IMG/VR virus record: IMGVR_UViG_2802429217_000005
Coordinates: 1 to 38,049 of that record
Strand: one strand, 5' to 3'
Source of the DNA: a virus
Lineage: Duplodnaviria; Heunggongvirae; Uroviricota; Caudoviricetes
Length of the DNA stretch: 38,049 nt
Shown here: piece after piece, positions 3,011-29,439 of the stretch
Numbering within the stretch: the stretch's first letter is position 1
Layout of the letters: each line of letters opens with the position of its first letter
Program-made: the position numbers and the translations under genes
The notes under the pieces: model-generated
Database searches by the model: none
Told to the model about the DNA's origin: nothing
Seen by the model: the letters and a program-made list of their open reading frames with translations, nothing else

Positions 3011-3841
3011 ACCGGACTCCTCCTGCGATCCCTTCTGATACTGTCATCAGCATTACGTCATCCTCCGTCATGTCCGCCACATCCGGGGAAGTAGGGATAA
3101 CTTCATTCCCGTCCGGGCCAAAGCGGACACCTCCGGCAAGCCCTGCCGCTTTCTGCATCAGCACATCATCTTCAGGCTCTTCGTCAGCCTCACGCCGGTT
3201 CAGCAGACTGAAATCCAGCGGATGCATATCCGGATCGCTGAAAAACAGGCTGAGCACGGTGTACGTCAGCCCGGAAAAGTGCATATCCAGCAGAACATCA
3301 TGAAAATAATGGGTACTGTAAAAGCGGTGCCAGTCGGCATACTCCGTGGATGACATCCCGGCAAGCATGGCACGCCAGTCGGGTCGCCCCATCTCACGCG
3401 CCAGTTTCAGGGCAAAACTCAGCTCACCGTCGAACACTTTCCCGCAGAAACAGGCTCTGCGGGCCCGGCGTCCTCTGTCTGTTCAGGGGCATTATTCACC
3501 ACAAACTCATACATACCAGACAACCGGTACACCACGTTTTCAGCATGAGAAATTGCCTCTGTAGGCCAGGTGGTAAGCACTTCCTGCTCAATCTGTTTAA
3601 CGGCTTCATTCATGGACGGCATCTGCGTCTTCTGCGGATGGTTATGCCACAGGGACATCGCCACCAGAAACGCGCCGGTTCTGATGGCGTCTTCCACAGT
3701 AAACTTCCGGTTGCTGTCTGACTCCGCCTGTTCTGCCTGCCGTTTCATCAGGGCGAGATGCTCAATACGCTGCAGGGCTGACAGTTCAGAAAGCGTGACG
3801 GTCACGCCGTTATGTTCAAATGATTCGGTTTTCAGGAACAT
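3003..3841 (-). CDS. T: tail assembly chaperone G-T fusion made by programmed -1 ribosomal frameshift
   Basis: The -1 frame downstream of the GGGAAAG heptamer stays open to 3003 and encodes a lambda gpT-like sequence (FDGELSFALKLAREMGRPDWRAMLAGMSS...); the T frame has no start of its own apart from the track's GTG artefact. Confidence 0.75.
3419..3841 (-). CDS. G: tail assembly chaperone G
   Basis: 140-aa ORF MFLKTESFEHNGVTVTLSELSALQRIEHLALMKRQ... matching lambda gpG; ends ...AGKCSTVS with the slippery site in its last codons. Confidence 0.9.
   Translation of the reverse strand: MFLKTESFEHNGVTVTLSELSALQRIEHLALMKRQAEQAESDSNRKFTVEDAIRTGAFLVAMSLWHNHPQKTQMPSMNEAVKQIEQEVLTTWPTEAISHAENVVYRLSGMYEFVVNNAPEQTEDAGPAEPVSAGKCSTVS
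3437..3443 (-). promoter_or_regulatory. slippery heptamer G GGA AAG for the G to G-T -1 frameshift
   Basis: Plus-strand CTTTCCC at 3437-3443 is GGGAAAG on the minus strand, in phase X XXY YYZ with G codons 133-135 (Ala-Gly-Lys). Confidence 0.8.
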
Positions 3842-3856
3842 CGCTGACTCTCCGGA

Positions 3857-4597
3857 TTAACTGTCGGTGACAGTGATTTCTGCAACCGCAGCAAGTTCAC
3901 CATTACCGGATACAACCGGAATGTTGACCTTACCTGCAGCAACGCCTTTCACGGTGATGGTCATACCACTGACCGACACGGTGGCTTTTGTTTTATCCGC
4001 TGACACCGCACGGAAGCTCTTGTCAGTTGCGCCCTCCGGCTGGAATGCCACGGTCAGCGTGGTGCTCTGCCCTTTCACCACCGAGGAGCTGGCAGGCGTC
4101 ACAGTCATACCGGTTGCCGCCGTCACCGTACTGCGATCTTCTGCCATTGACGGACGGCCCACATTGGTGACCTTCACCGTACGGGTGATCACTTCCTTCG
4201 CCGTCACCGCCTTACCGATACTGCTGACCCAGCCACGGAACACATCGACCGTGCCGTTCGGGAAGCGGATTTTATAGGCACGGGTATCACCTTCATTAAA
4301 CCACGCCAGCAGCGCCTGCTGCCCCTGCTCTCCGGGCATCCACGCCAGCGTGAAGCTGGTATCTCCGGCGGATTTCTGCCCCTGCCCGGTCGCGGTCCAG
4401 TCCGCATCTTCATCATCGAGATAACTGTCGTCATAGGACTCAGCGGTCAGTTCGCCGGGCGTCAGGTCTTTAACTTTAGCCAGACGCGACCAGTCAACGT
4501 CTGAAAGCGGGTTCGCATAAGGGTCGCCGCTCCCGTTATAAACCCACAGGGTGGTCCCGGCACCTTTCACCGGTATTGCTGGATTTGGTACAGGCAT
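3857..4597 (-). CDS. V: major tail tube protein V
   Basis: Protein from the internal ATG at 4597 ([20 protein letters not shown]..., 246 aa) matches lambda gpV including the C-terminal Ig-like region; GAGGA Shine-Dalgarno 5 nt upstream. The track ORF is extended 10 codons upstream. Confidence 0.93.
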
Positions 4598-4604
4598 ATC
4601 GTCC

Positions 4605-5000
4605 TCACATTTCATAGGTAATGACATAAGTCAGATCGGCAGAACTCCACAGGCCCGCATCATCGTCGCGCCGGTAGTCATAGCCACTGGCCACCATACT
4701 GGTGAGCAAATCTGACAGTGCCGGGATATCGCTCATCACCGGATAAATCCGGGACTCCATCCACGAATCCAGCTCTGAATCCGGTACCTGAGCAGGCAGG
4801 AAAACTTCGATATGCAGCTCCGCCTGCCAGGTATCGCTGTCCAGCTCTTCGCCCGTGTATTCAGCGCCGGTGAGATAAACGGCAACTGCCGGAAAATCCG
4901 CCTCATCAAAAACAGCGGGGCGACCATCAAAAAACGTCGCCCCGGTGTCATGCTTCTCCAGTGCATCCAGTACGGCTGCACGGAGTTCAGTATGTTTCAT
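4605..5000 (-). CDS. U: tail terminator protein U
   Basis: 131-aa [34 protein letters not shown]... matching lambda gpU. Confidence 0.93.
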
Positions 5001-24503: not shown

Positions 24504-24659
24504 TTACTCCTCAGGTTCGTAAGCTGTGAAGACAGCGACCTCCGTTTGGCTGGTTCGGATTCGTACCTCACAGAGATCTTTCCTCGTTACCAGTGCCGTC
24601 ACAATGACGGTTAAACAGATGACGATCAGGGCGATTAACATCGCCTTTTGCTGCTCCAT
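24504..24659 (-). CDS. hok: Hok-family type I toxin (HokD/RelF-like)
   Basis: 51-codon ORF missed by the >=60-aa track: MEQQKAMLIALIVICLTVIVTALVTRKDLCEVRIRTSQTEVAVFTAYEPEE, near-identical to E. coli HokD as recalled; AGGAG 9 nt upstream. Confidence 0.85.
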   Translation of the reverse strand: MEQQKAMLIALIVICLTVIVTALVTRKDLCEVRIRTSQTEVAVFTAYEPEE

Positions 24660-24841
24660 AGCCTGCTTCTCCTAGCCTTTCGGCACGTAAGAGGCTAACC
24701 TACATTTGTGAGACATAGATTGGGCCTCAGATTAATGTTAAGCGTCTTGCAGGACGCTTAATGTTAACTGTGCTTTTCTTTATCTGCCTTTTGGTGTTCA
24801 TGCCTGAGACAGATAGCCTCAATCACCCGCAGCGATTTTAC

Positions 24842-24856
24842 TTACCCTCCCCTCTA
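24842..24856. repeat. left copy of a 15-bp perfect direct repeat TTACCCTCCCCTCTA
   Basis: Exact 15-mer, repeated at 25962-25976; the flanks continue as an imperfect repeat (CGATACTACAAC vs CGATATACTA...GCTACAAC). Confidence 0.8.
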
Positions 24857-24943
24857 GTTCATTCGATACTACAACTTTATTTTCTTTTCGTTGTCTATAT
24901 AGTAAATAACATGTAATAAAAGTTACTCACTAACAATGGAGAG

Positions 24944-25168
24944 ATGCATATGCCCACACTTATCGGAAAAGTGCTTCGTCGATACACAAGTGCTGTAGCA
25001 ACCCATGTTGACACCCATCTTGAGCAAACGACAAAATATCGTCTTACAGTTGATGCGAACGGTAATGCCACCCTGAACATAGAAAACCCAGAAGTTCAAG
25101 CAGACATCATCAAGAAAATGAAACAATTGCGAAAACTACATAACCGTACAGACAAGGAAGTTGCTTAA
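24944..25168 (+). CDS. small basic protein of unknown function (first gene of the repeat-bounded operon)
   Basis: 74-aa ORF (likely start at the ATG at 24950, GGAGAG 6 nt upstream); its TAA overlaps the ATG of the next gene (TAATG); candidate -35 TTGTCT / -10 TAATAA upstream. Confidence 0.5.
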   Translation: MHMPTLIGKVLRRYTSAVATHVDTHLEQTTKYRLTVDANGNATLNIENPEVQADIIKKMKQLRKLHNRTDKEVA

Positions 25169-25959
25169 TGGGTCCATTGATTATAACTGTGATTCTCGTG
25201 TGTGGTTTTTGGTACACCGAGAATCACTATCAATCGAGAATTCATCACGCAAGAACAAATGGGTGGTCATCCTATTTCTACGTTGCAATGCATGGGTGTC
25301 GTTTTGTTGCTCAAGGATTTCTTTTGACGCTCGGGATCTACATGCTTTTCTGGCTACTGAACTCTATCCCACACATAATCAATATTTTCCGAGACAAACC
25401 TATAGAATGGCATTTTTTTAATTGGTTACTTGAAACCAAAGTGATGGAATTACCACTTTTTGCTGTCATCACCATCATTTTCGCTTGTTGTATTGCTTAC
25501 TCTGAGGGGGTGGATGCGCGAAAAGAAATGGAGAATGAAGAAGCGCGCCAAAAGGCTTACAGGGAGATGGCATCAAAAGATTCACTAGAAAACCTATTGA
25601 TCCAAGCCATTGACACAGAGATGCTGATTTTTGTAACACTAAAATCCAGAAAAGTATATATCGGGTATGTGTCAGCACCACGTGTTGAATTCCACAACAG
25701 TGCGCATCTTGAGATCATACCATTCATTAGTGGTTACAGAGATAAGGACTCACTACGCTACATAGAACAACACCGATACTATGATCTCTATCTATCCAAA
25801 GAAATCACATTTGAGTCCGAACCATTAAATTTACAACATTTTCGACACGTCATTCCTATCGAACAAATTGAAGCGATCTCGCTCTTTGATGAAAGCACGT
25901 ACAGCGATTTTGAAAGATTTTCCGAGCCAATGCCTGACACAAAGCAATTACCAGTATAG
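25168..25959 (+). CDS. membrane protein with three N-terminal TM helices and a ~150-aa C-terminal domain, unknown function
   Basis: 263-aa ORF, translationally coupled to the upstream gene; AAGGAAG Shine-Dalgarno; visibly AT-rich; no family recognised. Confidence 0.6.
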   Translation: MGPLIITVILVCGFWYTENHYQSRIHHARTNGWSSYFYVAMHGCRFVAQGFLLTLGIYMLFWLLNSIPHIINIFRDKPIEWHFFNWLLETKVMELPLFAVITIIFACCIAYSEGVDARKEMENEEARQKAYREMASKDSLENLLIQAIDTEMLIFVTLKSRKVYIGYVSAPRVEFHNSAHLEIIPFISGYRDKDSLRYIEQHRYYDLYLSKEITFESEPLNLQHFRHVIPIEQIEAISLFDESTYSDFERFSEPMPDTKQLPV

Positions 25960-25961
25960 TA

Positions 25962-25976
25962 TTACCCTCCCCTCTA
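25962..25976. repeat. right copy of the 15-bp direct repeat TTACCCTCCCCTCTA
   Basis: Exact match to 24842-24856, 3 nt after the stop of the 263-aa gene. Confidence 0.8.
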
Positions 25977-26282
25977 ACGATATACTAAAAAGCCGCTACA
26001 ACTGGACTGCCCCCATAAAGTTGGACAGTTCATGTTAAGCGGCTTTCAGGGCTTGACCCAACAGAAGTTAGATTGTAAGTATCCCGCTTAAACGGACCAT
26101 CTGGTCTTTGTTCCACGGTGACGTGCTCATACCTCCTGAAATGTGGGAGATTTGAGTATGGTTGTCCCTTATGAGCGAAATTTGCACGAAGCGGATAAGT
26201 TACCGGAGCTGAAGGTCCGCTGTGAGCGAAGAGCGGACCTGAGATTGTGGTATGCTAATTTATGGGGATCAGGTCAATTGTA

Positions 26283-26975
26283 TTAGTTATCTTTTTGCTT
26301 TTCTTTATCCCATTTCTTTGCAGTGGTCTGATACCACTCTTCACGCACTCGTTGTTCCTCGGCTCTGTCACTTGAATTATAGTTGTCCGTTTTAATTTTT
26401 TTGCTTCCATGGGAAATCGGCCTCCAGTCTTCTCTAATCTTTTTCACCTGCTCGGCTATCTGTGTCATTGGACTCCTTGCACCTAAGTAGCTAACCCCCT
26501 CGAAAGAAGCCATATCATAAGAATACTCATTCCGCTCTCTTTCAGTTGAGCCCGGCTGTTTAGACCAACTAATACTAACAGAATAAACTTGATCTTTAAT
26601 CTGTTCATACTTACAAAGACTGCTGTTGAGCGAATGGCCGTTTTTTAATACGCTAACCTTGCTAAATGGTATACCTATATTTTTTCTATGTTCAGCATTT
26701 ACCAGTGGGGGATTAAATCCGATTTCAATATCATAGGCTGGGGCATTTCCGGTATTAGCAATATTGATATCAAAATAAAAAGCAGCCCAAGAATTTGGTT
26801 CAAGAGTCACAACGACGTGAGGTTGAACTGATGCGTCAACCATCCTTTTTGTCTCGTCTGCTAATAGCCTTGTTACTCTCCACAAGAAAAATGTAGCAAC
26901 TGCTGTTAGCAATGCTGCCAAAGCGGAGATAAGTGTGCTTACAGTGTTTATATGCTCTGCGATAAATTCGATCAT
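26283..26975 (-). CDS. N-terminally TM-anchored protein of unknown function
   Basis: 230-aa ORF with one hydrophobic segment (residues ~10-32) and a Lys/Glu-rich C-terminus; AAGGA Shine-Dalgarno; convergent with the repeat-bounded operon. Confidence 0.55.
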   Translation of the reverse strand: MIEFIAEHINTVSTLISALAALLTAVATFFLWRVTRLLADETKRMVDASVQPHVVVTLEPNSWAAFYFDINIANTGNAPAYDIEIGFNPPLVNAEHRKNIGIPFSKVSVLKNGHSLNSSLCKYEQIKDQVYSVSISWSKQPGSTERERNEYSYDMASFEGVSYLGARSPMTQIAEQVKKIREDWRPISHGSKKIKTDNYNSSDRAEEQRVREEWYQTTAKKWDKEKQKDN

Positions 26976-27466
26976 GAGTTGTCCTTGGGGGCGTACTAAT
27001 TGTTTTCAAGACTAAAATAGCGCCGGGCTTGAAAAATTGCACACTTATGGTTCGATTTACCTCAACAGTTAAGGCTTCAGCTTCCCCCATGCACCTCACC
27101 CAGCTCAAGACTGTATGATGTCTGACAAAGAACTTACTGACACTTGAAAACGAGGTAGCGTCTAGGATTTCTCGTAGGGGAAGGATTGAATACGAAGCCT
27201 GTATATTGCTCCGCGAACGCTGCTGAGAGCAGTTTAAATGTTGGGCGTTTATGTGGCCTTTCACTCACCAGCATGAGTTCAATGCCTGTGAATTACCGAC
27301 AACAATATAAAGGGGGTGGCATCATCATATATCCAAGGTAGAGTCAAATCCTTTAACTGGTTTTATGATCAGCGTCAATTGTTTAATTATTGAACGTTTA
27401 CGAAGCGGCACGGGAGTCATATAACTAATGGGCAGGTATAAGCCTGTATCACGAGGAATCAGTAAA

Positions 27467-27646
27467 ATGGCTGATGATAAGACCAAAATCGGTACCCCTG
27501 ACAATGATTTAATAAGTATCAAACAGGATTACGAAAGACGTGATTGGGCTGAAAAGTTTGGAGTTAGCGAGGCCAAACTTGTTCAAGCCGTACAGGCTGT
27601 AGGTCATTCGGCTAAGAAAGTACAGGCATGGCTTAAAGACCATTAA
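27467..27646 (+). CDS. small protein, DUF3606-like
   Basis: 59 aa from the ATG at 27467 (MADDKTKIGTPDNDLISIKQDYERRDWAEKFGVSEAKLVQAVQAVGHSAKKVQAWLKDH); family recalled from the motif pattern only. Confidence 0.45.
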   Translation: MADDKTKIGTPDNDLISIKQDYERRDWAEKFGVSEAKLVQAVQAVGHSAKKVQAWLKDH

Positions 27647-27698
27647 TATATGAGCGCCTTTCTAGGCGCTTTTTTCTCTGTCCTTTTGGAGATGATTT

Positions 27699-27977
27699 AT
27701 GGCTAATAATTTATTTATTACTTATGACCTCATTAAAACGAAAGATTATGCGGCTGTGTATGATGCAATTAAATCTTTAGGAAATTGGGCTTTAACAACT
27801 GAATCGAACTGGTATGTTAACTGTAGTTACTCTGCCGAGGATGCAGCCAAAATTGTGAGGGCGGTCATGGATAGTGATGATAAACTTATTGTTGTAGACG
27901 CAACCAATAACTTAGTTTATTGGTACAATCTCTCTGATGAAGTTAGTAACCAAATTCAGACTGAGTGGTACAAGTAA
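27699..27977 (+). CDS. hypothetical protein
   Basis: 92-aa ORF with GGAGA Shine-Dalgarno 7 nt upstream; followed by a hairpin terminator; no family recognised. Confidence 0.45.
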   Translation: MANNLFITYDLIKTKDYAAVYDAIKSLGNWALTTESNWYVNCSYSAEDAAKIVRAVMDSDDKLIVVDATNNLVYWYNLSDEVSNQIQTEWYK

Positions 27978-27979
27978 TT

Positions 27980-28003
27980 AAAGGGGGATACCCCCCTTTA
28001 ATT
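27980..28003 (+). terminator. candidate intrinsic terminator after the plus-strand gene pair
   Basis: AAAGGGGG-ATAC-CCCCCTTT hairpin followed by an AATT-rich stretch, 3 nt after the stop at 27977. Confidence 0.45.
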
Positions 28004-28205
28004 CAGAAACTATCATGATTGAAACATTAAATATACTGGGTTTATTCTATCATCCCTGCTCTCTTGCTATATGTCCTGAAAGCGTTCTTTTAAACCTTCT
28101 GCTCAGTATGTCCGGTAATGGCACAAAGCGGACAACCACGCTAGCTCTACCCTATGCCATGAAAATGCCAATTCACATATTAATTAATGCTCTTAAATAT
28201 CATCA

Positions 28206-28625
28206 CTACAATAAATACCGAACATCTCCCTGATAAAACGACAATATGCGCTTCATAACTTCGCTTTTACGGCACTCACTACAAATTATATTATGACGCC
28301 TGTCGTAACGACGTATTTCTCCGTCTGGTAATGACCAAATAAGGTCTGGATCAACCACAACTGGTTTCTTCACCTTTGCCCTCGATAGTTTTTTGCGGGC
28401 GTTTTGCCAGTCTTTACGTGCCTGCTCAGACGGGAATAACCCGTAGCCAGAGTTGTATACGTCACCATTCGCAACCAACTCCCTGGCAAGAACACTTATC
28501 TGATATCTTGTCGCCCCCGTTTTAGTTTCCAGTTGTCGTAACGTCTCGCGCCCACTCTGGCGTACGAGATCAACGATCTGCCCTTTAATTTTTTCCCGCT
28601 CTTCCTGTGTAAATACTTTTGCCAT
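28206..28625 (-). CDS. hypothetical protein with HTH-like segment
   Basis: About 139 aa from the ATG at 28625 (GGGGAGGG Shine-Dalgarno); TGATRYQISVLARELVANG HTH-like segment and a C-terminal CSEC motif; directly downstream of the replication genes. Confidence 0.5.
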   Translation of the reverse strand: MAKVFTQEEREKIKGQIVDLVRQSGRETLRQLETKTGATRYQISVLARELVANGDVYNSGYGLFPSEQARKDWQNARKKLSRAKVKKPVVVDPDLIWSLPDGEIRRYDRRHNIICSECRKSEVMKRILSFYQGDVRYLL

Positions 28626-28641
28626 AAGCCCTCCCCAGGAA

Positions 28642-29439
28642 TCACTTTTCCGACACAATACGACTGGAGGAATCGACAATCTGTCGGACAATATCCTGGT
28701 GCTTGTTCAGCTCCCGCAGTGCGGCGCAGACTCGCTCCCACTTCTGGACATGACTTTTCGCCCGGCGCAGTTCGCGGTTTGCCATATGCAGCGATGGTAA
28801 AATCAGGCCATTGGCTCGCGTTTCAGTGAACGATGGCAACGACTGCACAATGTCCCCCACAGTATCTGTTTTAATTTCTTCCTGTGTTGCCGCTTCCTGT
28901 ACTGGTAACGTAACAACGGCTGGCTGAGAAAAGGCTTTACCAGGTGTTTTCTCTACCGATACAACTTTCGGCTCTGCTGGTAAATTTTCCCCGGTTTCTT
29001 TTACCCGCATCCACTTACACCCCTTCCCCTGTCCCAGCTTAATCACCATGCCATCGCGGCAAAGCTTTTCCATCGCAGAAACCAGCGACCTGACGCAATC
29101 AGCACGCCCCACAGCAATTGCAATCTCAGCGGTGGTCATTGCCCCACCATGAGCAAGTGTGGACAGGATGTCGCAGCGATTCAGTGGCTCACGCTCTTTT
29201 CTGCTGACCACCGGACGGGATTTTCTTTCCACTTTACACACCGTTACTTTTTTTTCTTTCACGCCCGTTTGTCGTTCTGAAACAGACCAGTAACCATTAA
29301 CCGACACAACTTCTCCCAGCTCTTCGTACTCCCTCAGCATTTTAATCGCCTCTGCAGGTTCAATGCCCAAACTGGCAGCAAGCTCGGTGCACGTCACCTT
29401 TTGCATCGCTTTTAACGTATCAATCAACGTTTCCATCAA
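28642..29439 (-). CDS. replication-module protein in the position of the helicase loader (P-like by position only)
   Basis: 265-aa ORF immediately after the initiator gene; two winged-helix-like segments; no ATPase motifs seen; not similar to lambda P from memory. Confidence 0.45.
   Translation of the reverse strand: MMETLIDTLKAMQKVTCTELAASLGIEPAEAIKMLREYEELGEVVSVNGYWSVSERQTGVKEKKVTVCKVERKSRPVVSRKEREPLNRCDILSTLAHGGAMTTAEIAIAVGRADCVRSLVSAMEKLCRDGMVIKLGQGKGCKWMRVKETGENLPAEPKVVSVEKTPGKAFSQPAVVTLPVQEAATQEEIKTDTVGDIVQSLPSFTETRANGLILPSLHMANRELRRAKSHVQKWERVCAALRELNKHQDIVRQIVDSSSRIVSEK

What the first reader, a model, noticed from the sequence alone, without database searches (positions are those of the whole stretch)
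24842..25976. Accessory cassette bracketed by perfect 15-bp direct repeats
TTACCCTCCCCTCTA occurs at 24842-24856 and again at 25962-25976, with imperfect repetition continuing into the flanks. The repeats enclose exactly one promoter-plus-operon unit (24944-25959) in visibly AT-rich DNA. It sits next to a hokD-like gene where the Qin prophage has relBE. This looks like a discrete module inserted or swapped by recombination at a repeated boundary sequence.
Basis: seen in the sequence. Interest (0 to 1): 0.75.

Follow-up and report, generated by a model that had tools for sequence, protein, structure and literature searches.

The report
Prophage cargo operon with incidental repeat
A small two-gene accessory operon sits in a swap-prone cargo slot of an E. 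coli lambda-like prophage, but the 15-base repeat around it is a lineage-specific junction quirk and not the site where the module is cut and pasted.

Summary
The 15-mer TTACCCTCCCCTCTA is at 24842-24856 and 25962-25976, exact, with only two copies in the window. It is weak evidence for a recombination mechanism. The window holds three exact 15-mer pairs, and a pair this close arose in 15% of simulated windows. None of 11 near-identical relatives has a perfect pair: nine carry a length-variable poly-C tract (C7-C10) at the right copy and one has a mismatch at the left.

The left copy appears to lie in the -10/-35 spacer of the hok promoter, where homology with other hok prophages decays. Prophages lacking the operon have different sequence there, so no empty site carries one copy. 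The right exchange boundary is about 250 bp beyond the right copy (26223-26238). The DNA between is scrap: an IS3-family end and an integrase 5' fragment.

The enclosed genes are real and mobile. They encode a 72-aa soluble protein and a 263-aa membrane protein with an Sm-like C-terminal domain. Their closest outgroups lie in the P2-like prophage defence hotspot between gpA and portal, and they lack flanking repeats. The slot beside hok carries varied cargo (relBE, AbiH, FRG, SIR2).

Verdict: an ordinary moron or hotspot module of unknown, possibly anti-phage, function; the repeat-boundary mechanism is not supported.

The parts
24504..24659 (-). hok (HokD-like) toxin CDS, 51 aa
   Evidence: ORF; annotated hokD in relatives
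24657..24826 (-). hok mRNA leader / sok region
   Evidence: Rfam RF01794, 81.8 bits, E 7.9e-18, full model length. A terminator-like hairpin at 24732-24767 followed by a T-rich tail lies on the + strand and fits Sok RNA.
24835..24840 (-). Putative hok promoter -10 (TAAAAT on the minus strand)
   Evidence: Read from the sequence. It aligns with TAGAAT of a TTGGCG-17-TAGAAT promoter in L002-type hok loci and lies 8-9 nt upstream of the Rfam hit's end. This is an inference, not a mapped start site.
24842..24856 (+). Left copy of the 15-mer. It occupies the -10/-35 spacer of the putative hok promoter, and homology with other hok loci decays here.
24857..24873 (.). Lineage-specific junction filler (GTTCATTCGATACTACA)
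   Evidence: No homologue in other hok loci or in P2-type operon loci
24874..24943 (+). Conserved regulatory region of the operon, with a putative promoter around TTGTCT (24891-24896) and the Shine-Dalgarno sequence GGAGAG
   Evidence: Aligned with P2-type homologues. The promoter assignment is inferred; the consensus scan did not call it.
24950..25168 (+). Small gene, 72 aa (74 aa if started at 24944), soluble, with no known family
   Evidence: Its stop overlaps the start of the next gene (TAATG).
25168..25959 (+). 263-aa membrane protein: 2-3 N-terminal hydrophobic helices plus a C-terminal Sm/LSm-like barrel
25962..25976 (+). Right copy of the 15-mer, in the 3' UTR 2 nt after the stop codon; a poly-C tract of 7-10 in most relatives
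25989..26046 (.). Long hairpin, a possible bidirectional terminator (followed by a U-run on the minus strand)
   Evidence: Fold z-scores -3.55 (+) and -3.11 (-)
26002..26056 (.). Remnant of an IS3-family element end
   Evidence: 98% identity to the end of an IS3-family transposase pseudogene in NCTC10973
26056..26181 (-). Remnant of the 5' end and leader hairpin of a tyrosine-recombinase gene
   Evidence: An 80-nt element at 85-90% identity sits at the start of 'site-specific integrase' genes in about 900 E. coli genomes. The Nissle homologue matches Pfam Phage_integrase.
26223..26238 (.). True right-hand exchange junction (TGAGCGAAGAGCGGAC), inside the hairpin at 26215-26239
   Evidence: Homology with L033 (SIR2 neighbour) ends here, and homology with the module in P2-like prophages (L004 and about 90 genomes) starts here
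26283..27977 (.). Next cargo module: 230-aa ORF (-, 26283-26975), DUF3606 (+, 27428-27646) and a 92-aa ORF (+, 27699-27977)
28206..28691 (-). DUF977 gene: the conserved right border of the variable slot, where the replication-side genes begin
   Evidence: Pfam DUF977, E 2.5e-29; the same border appears in other prophages

Best explanation
The region is one compartment of a multi-module cargo slot in a Qin/Rac-type lambdoid prophage. The slot runs from about 24857 to 28200, between hok/sok and the DUF977/DUF1627 replication-side genes. The compartment holds a self-contained two-gene moron: a 72-aa soluble protein whose stop codon overlaps the start codon of a 263-aa membrane protein with a cytoplasmic Sm-like domain.

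The same gene pair travels among accessory slots of temperate phages. These are the P2-like gpA-to-portal defence hotspot, the lambdoid hok-adjacent slot, and (for distant homologues) the lambdoid slot downstream of Q. Movement appears to be by ordinary illegitimate or short-homology recombination, leaving scrap DNA (an IS end and an integrase fragment) at its right edge.

The 15-bp repeat is not the recombination site. The left copy belongs to the junction, which falls in what I infer to be the hok promoter spacer. The right copy is a slippery C-rich tract in the operon's 3' UTR. Their identity in this window is a lineage-specific accident of that junction: either chance similarity between two C-rich tracts, sharpened by one C/T difference, or a short stretch copied from the operon's 3' end as junction filler when the module was joined to hok.

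The function of the gene pair is inferred, not shown. The most likely role is superinfection exclusion or abortive infection acting at the membrane, in which the Sm-like domain oligomerises and/or binds nucleic acid and the small protein acts as partner or regulator.
For: Mosaic boundaries:
- Homology with thousands of hok loci stops at 24844-24854.
- The operon plus its tail is co-inherited as far as 26222-26238.
- Only 7 of 5,426 genomes carry it at this site.

Variable slot: FRG, AbiH, QueH, beta/sce7726, SIR2 and relBE occupy the same place in other prophages.

The repeat is neither conserved nor general:
- No relative has a perfect pair.
- No 15-mer is present at empty sites.
- In IMG/VR the 15-mer lies next to hok only when the operon is present.
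- The closest outgroups (81-84% aa), all in P2-like hotspots, have no match within 3 mismatches.
- In 78 homologue loci the longest word shared by the upstream and downstream flanks is typically 7-10 nt. The only long ones are duplicated terminators.
- There are no terminal inverted repeats and no recombinase gene inside the repeat.

Statistics are borderline.

Scrap DNA lies to the right of the operon.

The gene pair:
- A small ORF abuts the large gene in all 78 loci.
- The C-terminal domain has an Sm-like fold.
- The P2 homologues are listed among P2 hotspot loci in Rousset et al. 2022, Table S5A (PMC9122126).
Against: - Both copies lie in non-coding DNA exactly flanking the operon. The upstream flanks share extra colinear similarity (P about 0.005-0.01), so a historical duplication or templated junction cannot be told apart from chance.
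- The left copy never occurs without the operon, which is also what an insertion footprint would predict.
- No known defence HMM matches either protein (PADLOC), and no experiment supports an anti-phage role.
- In several P2 loci the pair sits beside recognised defence genes and could be hotspot-adjacent housekeeping instead.
- The hok promoter assignment is read from sequence only.
Confidence: 0.72

Rival explanations
1. The repeats are the footprint of the insertion event. Candidate events are a target-site duplication, att-core-like repeats from site-specific integration, Campbell-type integration of a circular cassette through a short shared sequence, or a decayed tandem duplication of the module.
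For: - The pair is exact here, is the closest of the three 15-mer pairs in the window, and lies in non-coding DNA on both sides of the operon.
- The upstream flanks add colinear similarity.
- In the collections searched, the left copy is found only together with the operon.
- An integrase gene fragment lies about 100 bp to the right.
Against: - No empty site with one copy exists in 5,426 E. coli genomes or in IMG/VR.
- The segment right of the right copy (25977-26222) is never found joined to hok without the operon.
- The exchanged block extends 250 bp past the right copy.
- There are no terminal inverted repeats and no transposase.
- The integrase fragment lies outside the bracket and belongs to a widespread unrelated element.
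- Relatives have imperfect copies.
- The gene pair moves between phage types without such repeats.
Confidence: 0.17
2. The 15-mer is a functional cis element present twice. Possibilities are a binding site for a regulator (perhaps the 72-aa protein) that couples hok and operon expression, a C-rich Rho-utilisation site, or a phase-variable tract whose poly-C length tunes expression.
For: - The left copy sits in what looks like the spacer of the hok promoter, about 35 bp upstream of the operon's conserved control region.
- The right copy is a homopolymer of variable length in relatives, the kind of tract used in phase variation.
- A promoter-like site (CTGACA-17-TAGTAT, ending at 25962) sits just upstream of the right copy.
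Against: - Homologous operons in P2-like and other lambdoid phages lack the motif entirely, so it is not part of the conserved unit.
- The poly-C tract lies after the stop codon, with no ORF or convincing promoter depending on it.
- The number of promoter-like hits in the region is below the shuffle expectation.
- The variation in tract length could partly be homopolymer assembly error.
Confidence: 0.06
3. Pure coincidence with no shared history: two independent C/T-rich stretches that happen to match.
For: - Three exact 15-mer pairs occur in the window, and a pair this close arises in 15% of simulated windows.
- In most relatives the right copy is simply TTA-poly(C)-TCTA.
- The downstream flanks are not significantly similar.
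- The 12-mer upstream match lies in sequences native to each side. One is the hok leader, conserved in all hok loci; the other is the gene's C-terminal codons, conserved in P2 homologues.
Against: Both copies fall in the small non-coding fraction at the two ends of one operon, and the left one sits exactly on a mosaic breakpoint. My rough estimate of the joint probability is below 1%. This reading is largely contained in the best explanation, which leaves chance and templated filler open as alternatives.
Confidence: 0.3

Closest known systems
Morons of lambdoid phages (Juhala, Hendrix et al. 2000; recalled from memory): autonomous transcription units inserted between genes that are adjacent in related phages
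   Same: The two-gene unit has its own conserved upstream control region and a downstream hairpin, a lower GC content than the phage core, and is absent from the same position in related prophages.
   Different: The promoter and terminator are inferred, not shown. The slot holds several stacked modules plus relics of mobile elements, not one clean insertion.
Defence hotspots of P2-like phages and P4 satellites (Rousset et al. 2022, PMC9122126; Moura de Sousa et al. 2026 preprint, 10.64898/2026.02.27.708500)
   Same: The closest homologues of the operon lie in the P2 hotspot between gpA/DinI and portal. The CFT073-type pair is listed in Table S5A of Rousset et al.. The next module in the window is shared with P2-like prophages, lying between the tail-sheath and tail-fibre-assembly genes. 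The rapid swapping and exchange with non-P2 prophages described in the preprint fit what is seen here.
   Different: Here the slot is in a lambdoid prophage next to hok. The pair matches no PADLOC family, and I found no record that it has been tested.
Att-core or target-site duplications flanking integrated elements (for example the 15-bp lambda core, or IS duplications)
   Same: Two identical 15-bp direct repeats flank a discrete block of foreign DNA.
   Different: There is no recombinase or transposase inside, no inverted repeats, no single-copy empty site, copies are imperfect in relatives, and the exchange boundary lies elsewhere.
'Boundary sequences' between lambdoid modules (Clark et al. 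2001, HK620; recalled from memory)
   Same: A short sequence lies at a junction between modules of different ancestry.
   Different: A boundary sequence recurs at the same junction in many phages. This 15-mer does not, and other hok junctions break at different points with different sequence. The 16-mer at 26223-26238 behaves more like one, because it is shared by three different combinations of modules.
Sm/LSm/Hfq-fold proteins
   Different: It is fused to 2-3 transmembrane helices, has no sequence similarity to Sm motifs (Pfam finds none), and neither ring formation nor RNA binding has been tested.

Membership tests
Transposable element with target-site duplication | Identical direct repeats immediately flanking the element in all copies | tested here: not met
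   Exact only in this window. The 11 relatives have a poly-C variant or a mismatch.
Transposable element with target-site duplication | Terminal inverted repeats just inside the direct repeats | tested here: not met
   Best alignment of the inner ends scores 12 against a shuffle mean of 13 (P = 0.79). No linking inverted repeat was found.
Transposable element with target-site duplication | Transposase or recombinase encoded within | tested here: not met
   Only the two ORFs lie inside; neither matches a Pfam or PADLOC family.
Transposable element with target-site duplication | Empty sites carrying one copy of the target | tested here: not met
   Other hok loci have TTAACTCCCGTCACC or other sequences. 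The segment 25977-26222 is never joined to hok without the operon.
Site-specific integrative cassette (att core / integron-like) | Associated tyrosine or serine recombinase acting on the repeated core | tested here: inconclusive
   Only a 5' fragment of a tyrosine recombinase gene is present (26056-26181). It lies outside the bracket and belongs to an element found in about 900 genomes that lack the 15-mer. Activity is not testable here.
Site-specific integrative cassette (att core / integron-like) | The same core sequence recurs at other insertion sites or cassettes | tested here: not met
   Of 25 exact hits in IMG/VR, 4 are the same locus and 21 are unrelated contexts.
Lambdoid module boundary sequence | The same short sequence at the homologous junction in phages carrying different flanking modules | tested here: not met
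   Nine hok junctions were compared. The 15-mer occurs only with this operon, and breakpoints differ between lineages.
Moron (autonomous accessory transcription unit in a prophage) | Absent from the same position in related phages whose flanking genes are conserved | tested here: met
   The hok-to-DUF977 slot has the same borders and different contents.
Moron (autonomous accessory transcription unit in a prophage) | Nucleotide composition deviating from the phage core | tested here: met
   GC 0.38-0.41 against about 0.50-0.58
Moron (autonomous accessory transcription unit in a prophage) | Own promoter and terminator | tested here: inconclusive
   A 70-nt upstream region is conserved with P2 homologues, and a stable hairpin lies downstream. 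The consensus scan called no promoter there, and there are no transcript data.
Anti-phage defence system | Homology to a known or candidate defence family | tested here: not met
   PADLOC-DB 2.0: no hits at E <= 1. Pfam: none significant. PHROGs: unknown function.
Anti-phage defence system | Residence in validated defence hotspots | tested here: met
   40 of 80 IMG/VR homologue loci are P2-like. The loci are listed in Rousset et al. Table S5A. Neighbours include TIGR02391, AAA+RloB and SIR2 genes.
Anti-phage defence system | Protection against phage infection | not testable with these tools
   Requires cloning and plaque assays
hok/sok type I toxin-antitoxin locus (context, left neighbour) | Hok toxin ORF together with the sok/leader RNA structure | tested here: met
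   51-aa Hok ORF; Rfam RF01794 at 81.8 bits against a gathering threshold of 59
Sm/LSm fold (C-terminal domain of the 263-aa protein) | N-terminal helix followed by a strongly bent five-stranded beta-sheet that superposes on Sm proteins | tested here: met
Sm/LSm fold (C-terminal domain of the 263-aa protein) | Ring oligomer and RNA binding | not tested
   No multimer prediction or biochemistry was available

The most novel reading that the evidence does not exclude
The 72-aa protein and the membrane-anchored Sm-like protein form a previously unrecognised two-gene anti-phage (exclusion or abortive-infection) system. It shuttles between the P2-like gpA-to-portal hotspot and two different lambdoid cargo slots. 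In this reading the Sm-like cytoplasmic ring senses a phage nucleic acid or protein and gates a membrane-disrupting transmembrane bundle. The 15-bp repeat plays no part.
Probability: 0.3. Interest if true: 0.55.

Novelty: new member of a known kind. Interest (0 to 1): 0.3.

Why it matters
The repeat-bounded cassette would have been interesting as a new cut-and-paste mechanism for prophage cargo, but the evidence points away from that. Two useful results remain.

First, this is a worked example of how cargo slots in lambdoid prophages are built. Modules are stacked, several of them are shared with P2-like hotspots, and they are joined at irregular breakpoints littered with IS and integrase relics.

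Second, it yields a concrete untested candidate. A conserved small-protein plus transmembrane-Sm-like gene pair sits in three different temperate-phage accessory slots and matches no family in the defence library searched (PADLOC-DB 2.0). If it proves to be an exclusion or abortive-infection system, it would add a new effector architecture.

Tried and rejected
- Target-site duplication or transposon: rejected. No inverted repeats, no transposase, no empty site.
- Repeated module boundary sequence: rejected. The 15-mer is absent from other hok junctions and from all homologous gene-pair loci.
- Right region as a remnant of a second hok/sok locus: rejected. The idea came from the 22-nt similarity between 26029-26050 and the sok terminator arm. 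That stretch is in fact the end of an IS3-family element, the matches are not colinear, and Rfam finds only one sok.
- Right 15-mer as vestigial C-terminal coding sequence (V*YYPPL* against VPQPTA* in the 268-aa homologues): left open, but weak. Only about 9 of 21 nt are identical, and a 263-aa P2 homologue stops at the same place as the window gene.
- Paralogy between the 263-aa protein and the 237-aa ORF downstream of Q in the window: none.
- Unrelated or unavailable: the afdb50 fold library was not available. BFVD gave only weak matches, almost all unannotated. The junction word GTTCATTCGATACTACAAC in L129 is a coincidental coding match. Literature searches found nothing on a transmembrane Sm-like defence protein.
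Full report
**Observation**

The 15-mer TTACCCTCCCCTCTA is present exactly at 24842-24856 and 25962-25976, and nowhere else in the window even allowing two mismatches. It brackets a two-gene operon. The first gene encodes 72 aa (24950-25168; 74 aa from 24944). Its stop overlaps the start of a 263-aa ORF at 25168-25959.

The DNA is AT-rich at GC 0.38-0.41, but that composition continues to about 28300. A complete hok/sok locus lies to the left: the Hok ORF at 24504-24659 on the minus strand and an Rfam sok hit at 24657-24826. K-12-type Qin has relB-relE abutting hokD at this position.

**Is the repeat more than chance?**

Only marginally, taken on its own.
- The window contains three exact 15-mer direct-repeat pairs and none longer.
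- In 300 simulations with locally trained second-order Markov chains, 15% of windows had a 15-mer pair within 1.5 kb.
- In its favour, both copies lie in non-coding DNA at the two ends of one operon.
- The upstream flanks carry extra colinear similarity (ATGCCTGAGACA / ATGCCTGACACA and CAAT.AC), with empirical P about 0.005-0.01. The downstream flanks do not.
- That upstream similarity lies in sequence native to each side. One side is the hok leader, conserved in all hok loci. The other is the last ten codons of the gene, conserved in P2-type homologues.

**Relatives**

Seven of 5,426 complete E. coli genomes and four IMG/VR contigs carry the operon at 99.5-99.8% identity in the same place.
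- None has a perfect pair. In nine of the eleven the right copy is TTA-C7..C10-TCTA.
- The exact right copy occurs only in the window and in strain D217-5, and D217-5 has TTACTCTCCCCTCTA on the left.
- The underlying resemblance is therefore TTACCCTCCCCTCTA against TTA-poly(C)-TCTA. The perfect identity is a single-base state private to this sequence.

**Left junction**

Homology with thousands of hok-bearing prophages ends at 24844-24854. The common hok type continues as ...TCTACTTAACTCCCGTCACCTCGCCAATATAAAATC. On the hok strand this reads as a TTGGCG-17-TAGAAT promoter.

The window lineage keeps the -10 (TAAAAT, 24840-24835 on the minus strand) but diverges from ACTTA onward. The left 15-mer therefore occupies the promoter spacer, and the -35 is supplied by foreign DNA (promoter assignment inferred). 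Two other lineages break at nearby but different points with unrelated sequence (L133, L134).

No hok locus without the operon carries the 15-mer, either in the nine junctions compared or in IMG/VR. There, the 25 exact hits are the four operon-bearing contigs plus 21 unrelated sequences. After the 15-mer come 17 lineage-specific bases (24857-24873). The operon's own upstream region follows, and it aligns with P2-type homologues.

**Right junction**

The block co-inherited with the operon does not end at 25976.
- Strain SA31-1 has the operon followed by a different neighbour (SIR2 plus an NTP pyrophosphatase). It stays homologous to the window up to 26238.
- About 90 genomes carry the next module (230-aa ORF, DUF3606, 92-aa ORF) without the operon, inside P2-like prophages between the tail sheath and tail-fibre assembly genes. 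Their homology starts at 26223.
- The shared 16-mer TGAGCGAAGAGCGGAC (26223-26238), inside a stable hairpin, is therefore the real exchange junction.

The 250 bp between the right 15-mer and that junction is scrap:
- a long hairpin at 25989-26046 (z -3.5);
- the end of an IS3-family element at 26002-26056, 98% identical to one in NCTC10973;
- the first codons and leader hairpin of a tyrosine-recombinase gene at 26056-26181, an element present at the start of a short integrase gene in about 900 E. coli genomes.

This segment is never found joined to hok without the operon.

**The gene pair elsewhere**

The closest outgroups (81-84% aa identity; Citrobacter, Enterobacter, E. coli) all lie in P2-like prophages between the replication endonuclease gpA and the portal gene. 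In some of these the pair is the only cargo between gpA and portal apart from one small ORF. More distant members sit in the same hotspot next to TIGR02391 or AAA+RloB genes. The CFT073-type pair is listed among P2 hotspot loci in Rousset et al. 2022, Table S5A, as 'hypothetical + hypothetical' (PMC9122126).

Of 80 IMG/VR loci found with a family profile, 40 are P2-like and 15 are lambdoid. The lambdoid set includes distant (34-35% aa) pairs sitting just downstream of Q. In all 78 loci analysed, a small ORF abuts the large gene.

None of the near outgroups has anything within three mismatches of the 15-mer. Across the 78 loci, the longest word shared by the 250-nt upstream and downstream flanks is typically 7-10 nt. 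The exceptions are duplicated terminator hairpins, not C-rich motifs.

**What the proteins are**

Neither protein matches Pfam or PADLOC, and the PHROG families they match have unknown function. The large protein's family is essentially confined to Enterobacterales and has the invariant motifs TLKSRKVYIG and IPFISGYRDKD.

**Mechanism**

Shown:
- The operon is a discrete module in a variable slot.
- The slot's contents differ between prophages that share the same hok and DUF977 borders: FRG, AbiH, QueH, beta/sce7726, SIR2, relBE.
- The module's limits are about 24857 and 26222-26238.
- The 15-mer is neither a conserved boundary nor an empty-site mark.

Inferred:
- The module was joined to hok by illegitimate or short-homology recombination, of the rapid swapping kind described for P2/P4 hotspots and their exchange with other prophages (preprint 10.64898/2026.02.27.708500).
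- The left 15-mer is either a chance match between C-rich tracts or a short filler templated from the operon's 3' end at the junction.

Speculative:
- The pair acts at the membrane in superinfection exclusion or abortive infection (my estimate is about 0.3).

**Comparison and verdict**

The closest known kinds are lambdoid morons and the cargo of P2/P4 defence hotspots. Membership in the transposon/TSD, att-core or integron, and boundary-sequence categories fails on the features tested. What is present is an ordinary, if uncharacterised, prophage accessory module. It is a new member of a known kind, of modest interest mainly as an untested candidate system.

Noticed in passing
window 25962-25976 and the same site in L013, L015, L029, L032-L038: In near-identical relatives the right copy is a homopolymeric C tract of 7, 8, 9 or 10 bases. 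It is interrupted by a T only in the window and in D217-5. This may be real slippage or may partly be homopolymer assembly error.
   Followed up: partly
window 26056-26181 (minus strand); L039 2501-2581; L040 3001-3130: A fragment of a tyrosine-recombinase gene (MSTSPWNKD...) with its leader hairpin. The same 80-nt element sits at the start of a short (200-aa) Phage_integrase gene in about 900 E. coli genomes, next to variable cargo (SLATT+SMODS, dynamin-like and others).
   Followed up: partly
window 26172-26179 and 26223-26238: The word TGAGCGAA recurs exactly where homology switches. One instance is at the end of the integrase element. The other is at the junction shared by three different combinations of modules (TGAGCGAAGAGCGGAC). 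L040 has TGAGCGAAGAACGGAC directly after the integrase element, so the window may carry a 51-bp duplication. This may be a recombination site for that integrase family.
   Followed up: no
window 26002-26056; L041 2497-2554: The terminal about 55 nt of an IS3-family element, 98% identical to the end of a transposase pseudogene in NCTC10973. It forms the right arm of the long hairpin at 25989-26046.
   Followed up: partly
window 26223-about 28200; L004: The neighbouring module (230-aa N-terminally hydrophobic ORF on the minus strand, DUF3606, 92-aa ORF) is 96-97% identical to cargo in about 90 E. coli genomes. In the one locus examined (L004) it lies in a P2-like prophage between the tail sheath and tail-fibre assembly genes. 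A lambdoid slot and a P2 tail-region slot therefore share cargo.
   Followed up: partly
L110, L114, L121 (about 3700-4800): Distant homologue pairs (94-aa ORF plus a 265-aa protein, 34-35% aa identity) lie immediately downstream of the Q antiterminator in other hok/DUF968 lambdoid prophages. This is a third accessory slot for the family.
   Followed up: partly
L105 329/1693 and L106 3650/5014: In one metagenomic lineage the homologous pair is flanked by two copies of a 22-nt terminator hairpin, ACCCGCCATTGAGCGGGTTTTT.
   Followed up: no
window 24835-24863 against L002 3417-3450: The -35 box of the hok promoter (TTGGCG in the common type) has been replaced by foreign DNA in this lineage. Three lineages break within about 10 bp of the -10. 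Whether hok is still transcribed normally is unknown.
   Followed up: no
L005 4064-4330: A P2-like prophage in an O22:H8 strain keeps the promoter and small gene (78% nt identity), but the large gene is truncated after a few codons. This is a decayed copy of the operon.
   Followed up: no
window 5122/13095, 15091/27840, and 24771/26296: Two other exact 15-mer direct-repeat pairs, and a 14-mer (TGCTTTTCTTTATC) shared by the sok region and the 3' end of the 230-aa ORF. All look like chance matches.
   Followed up: no
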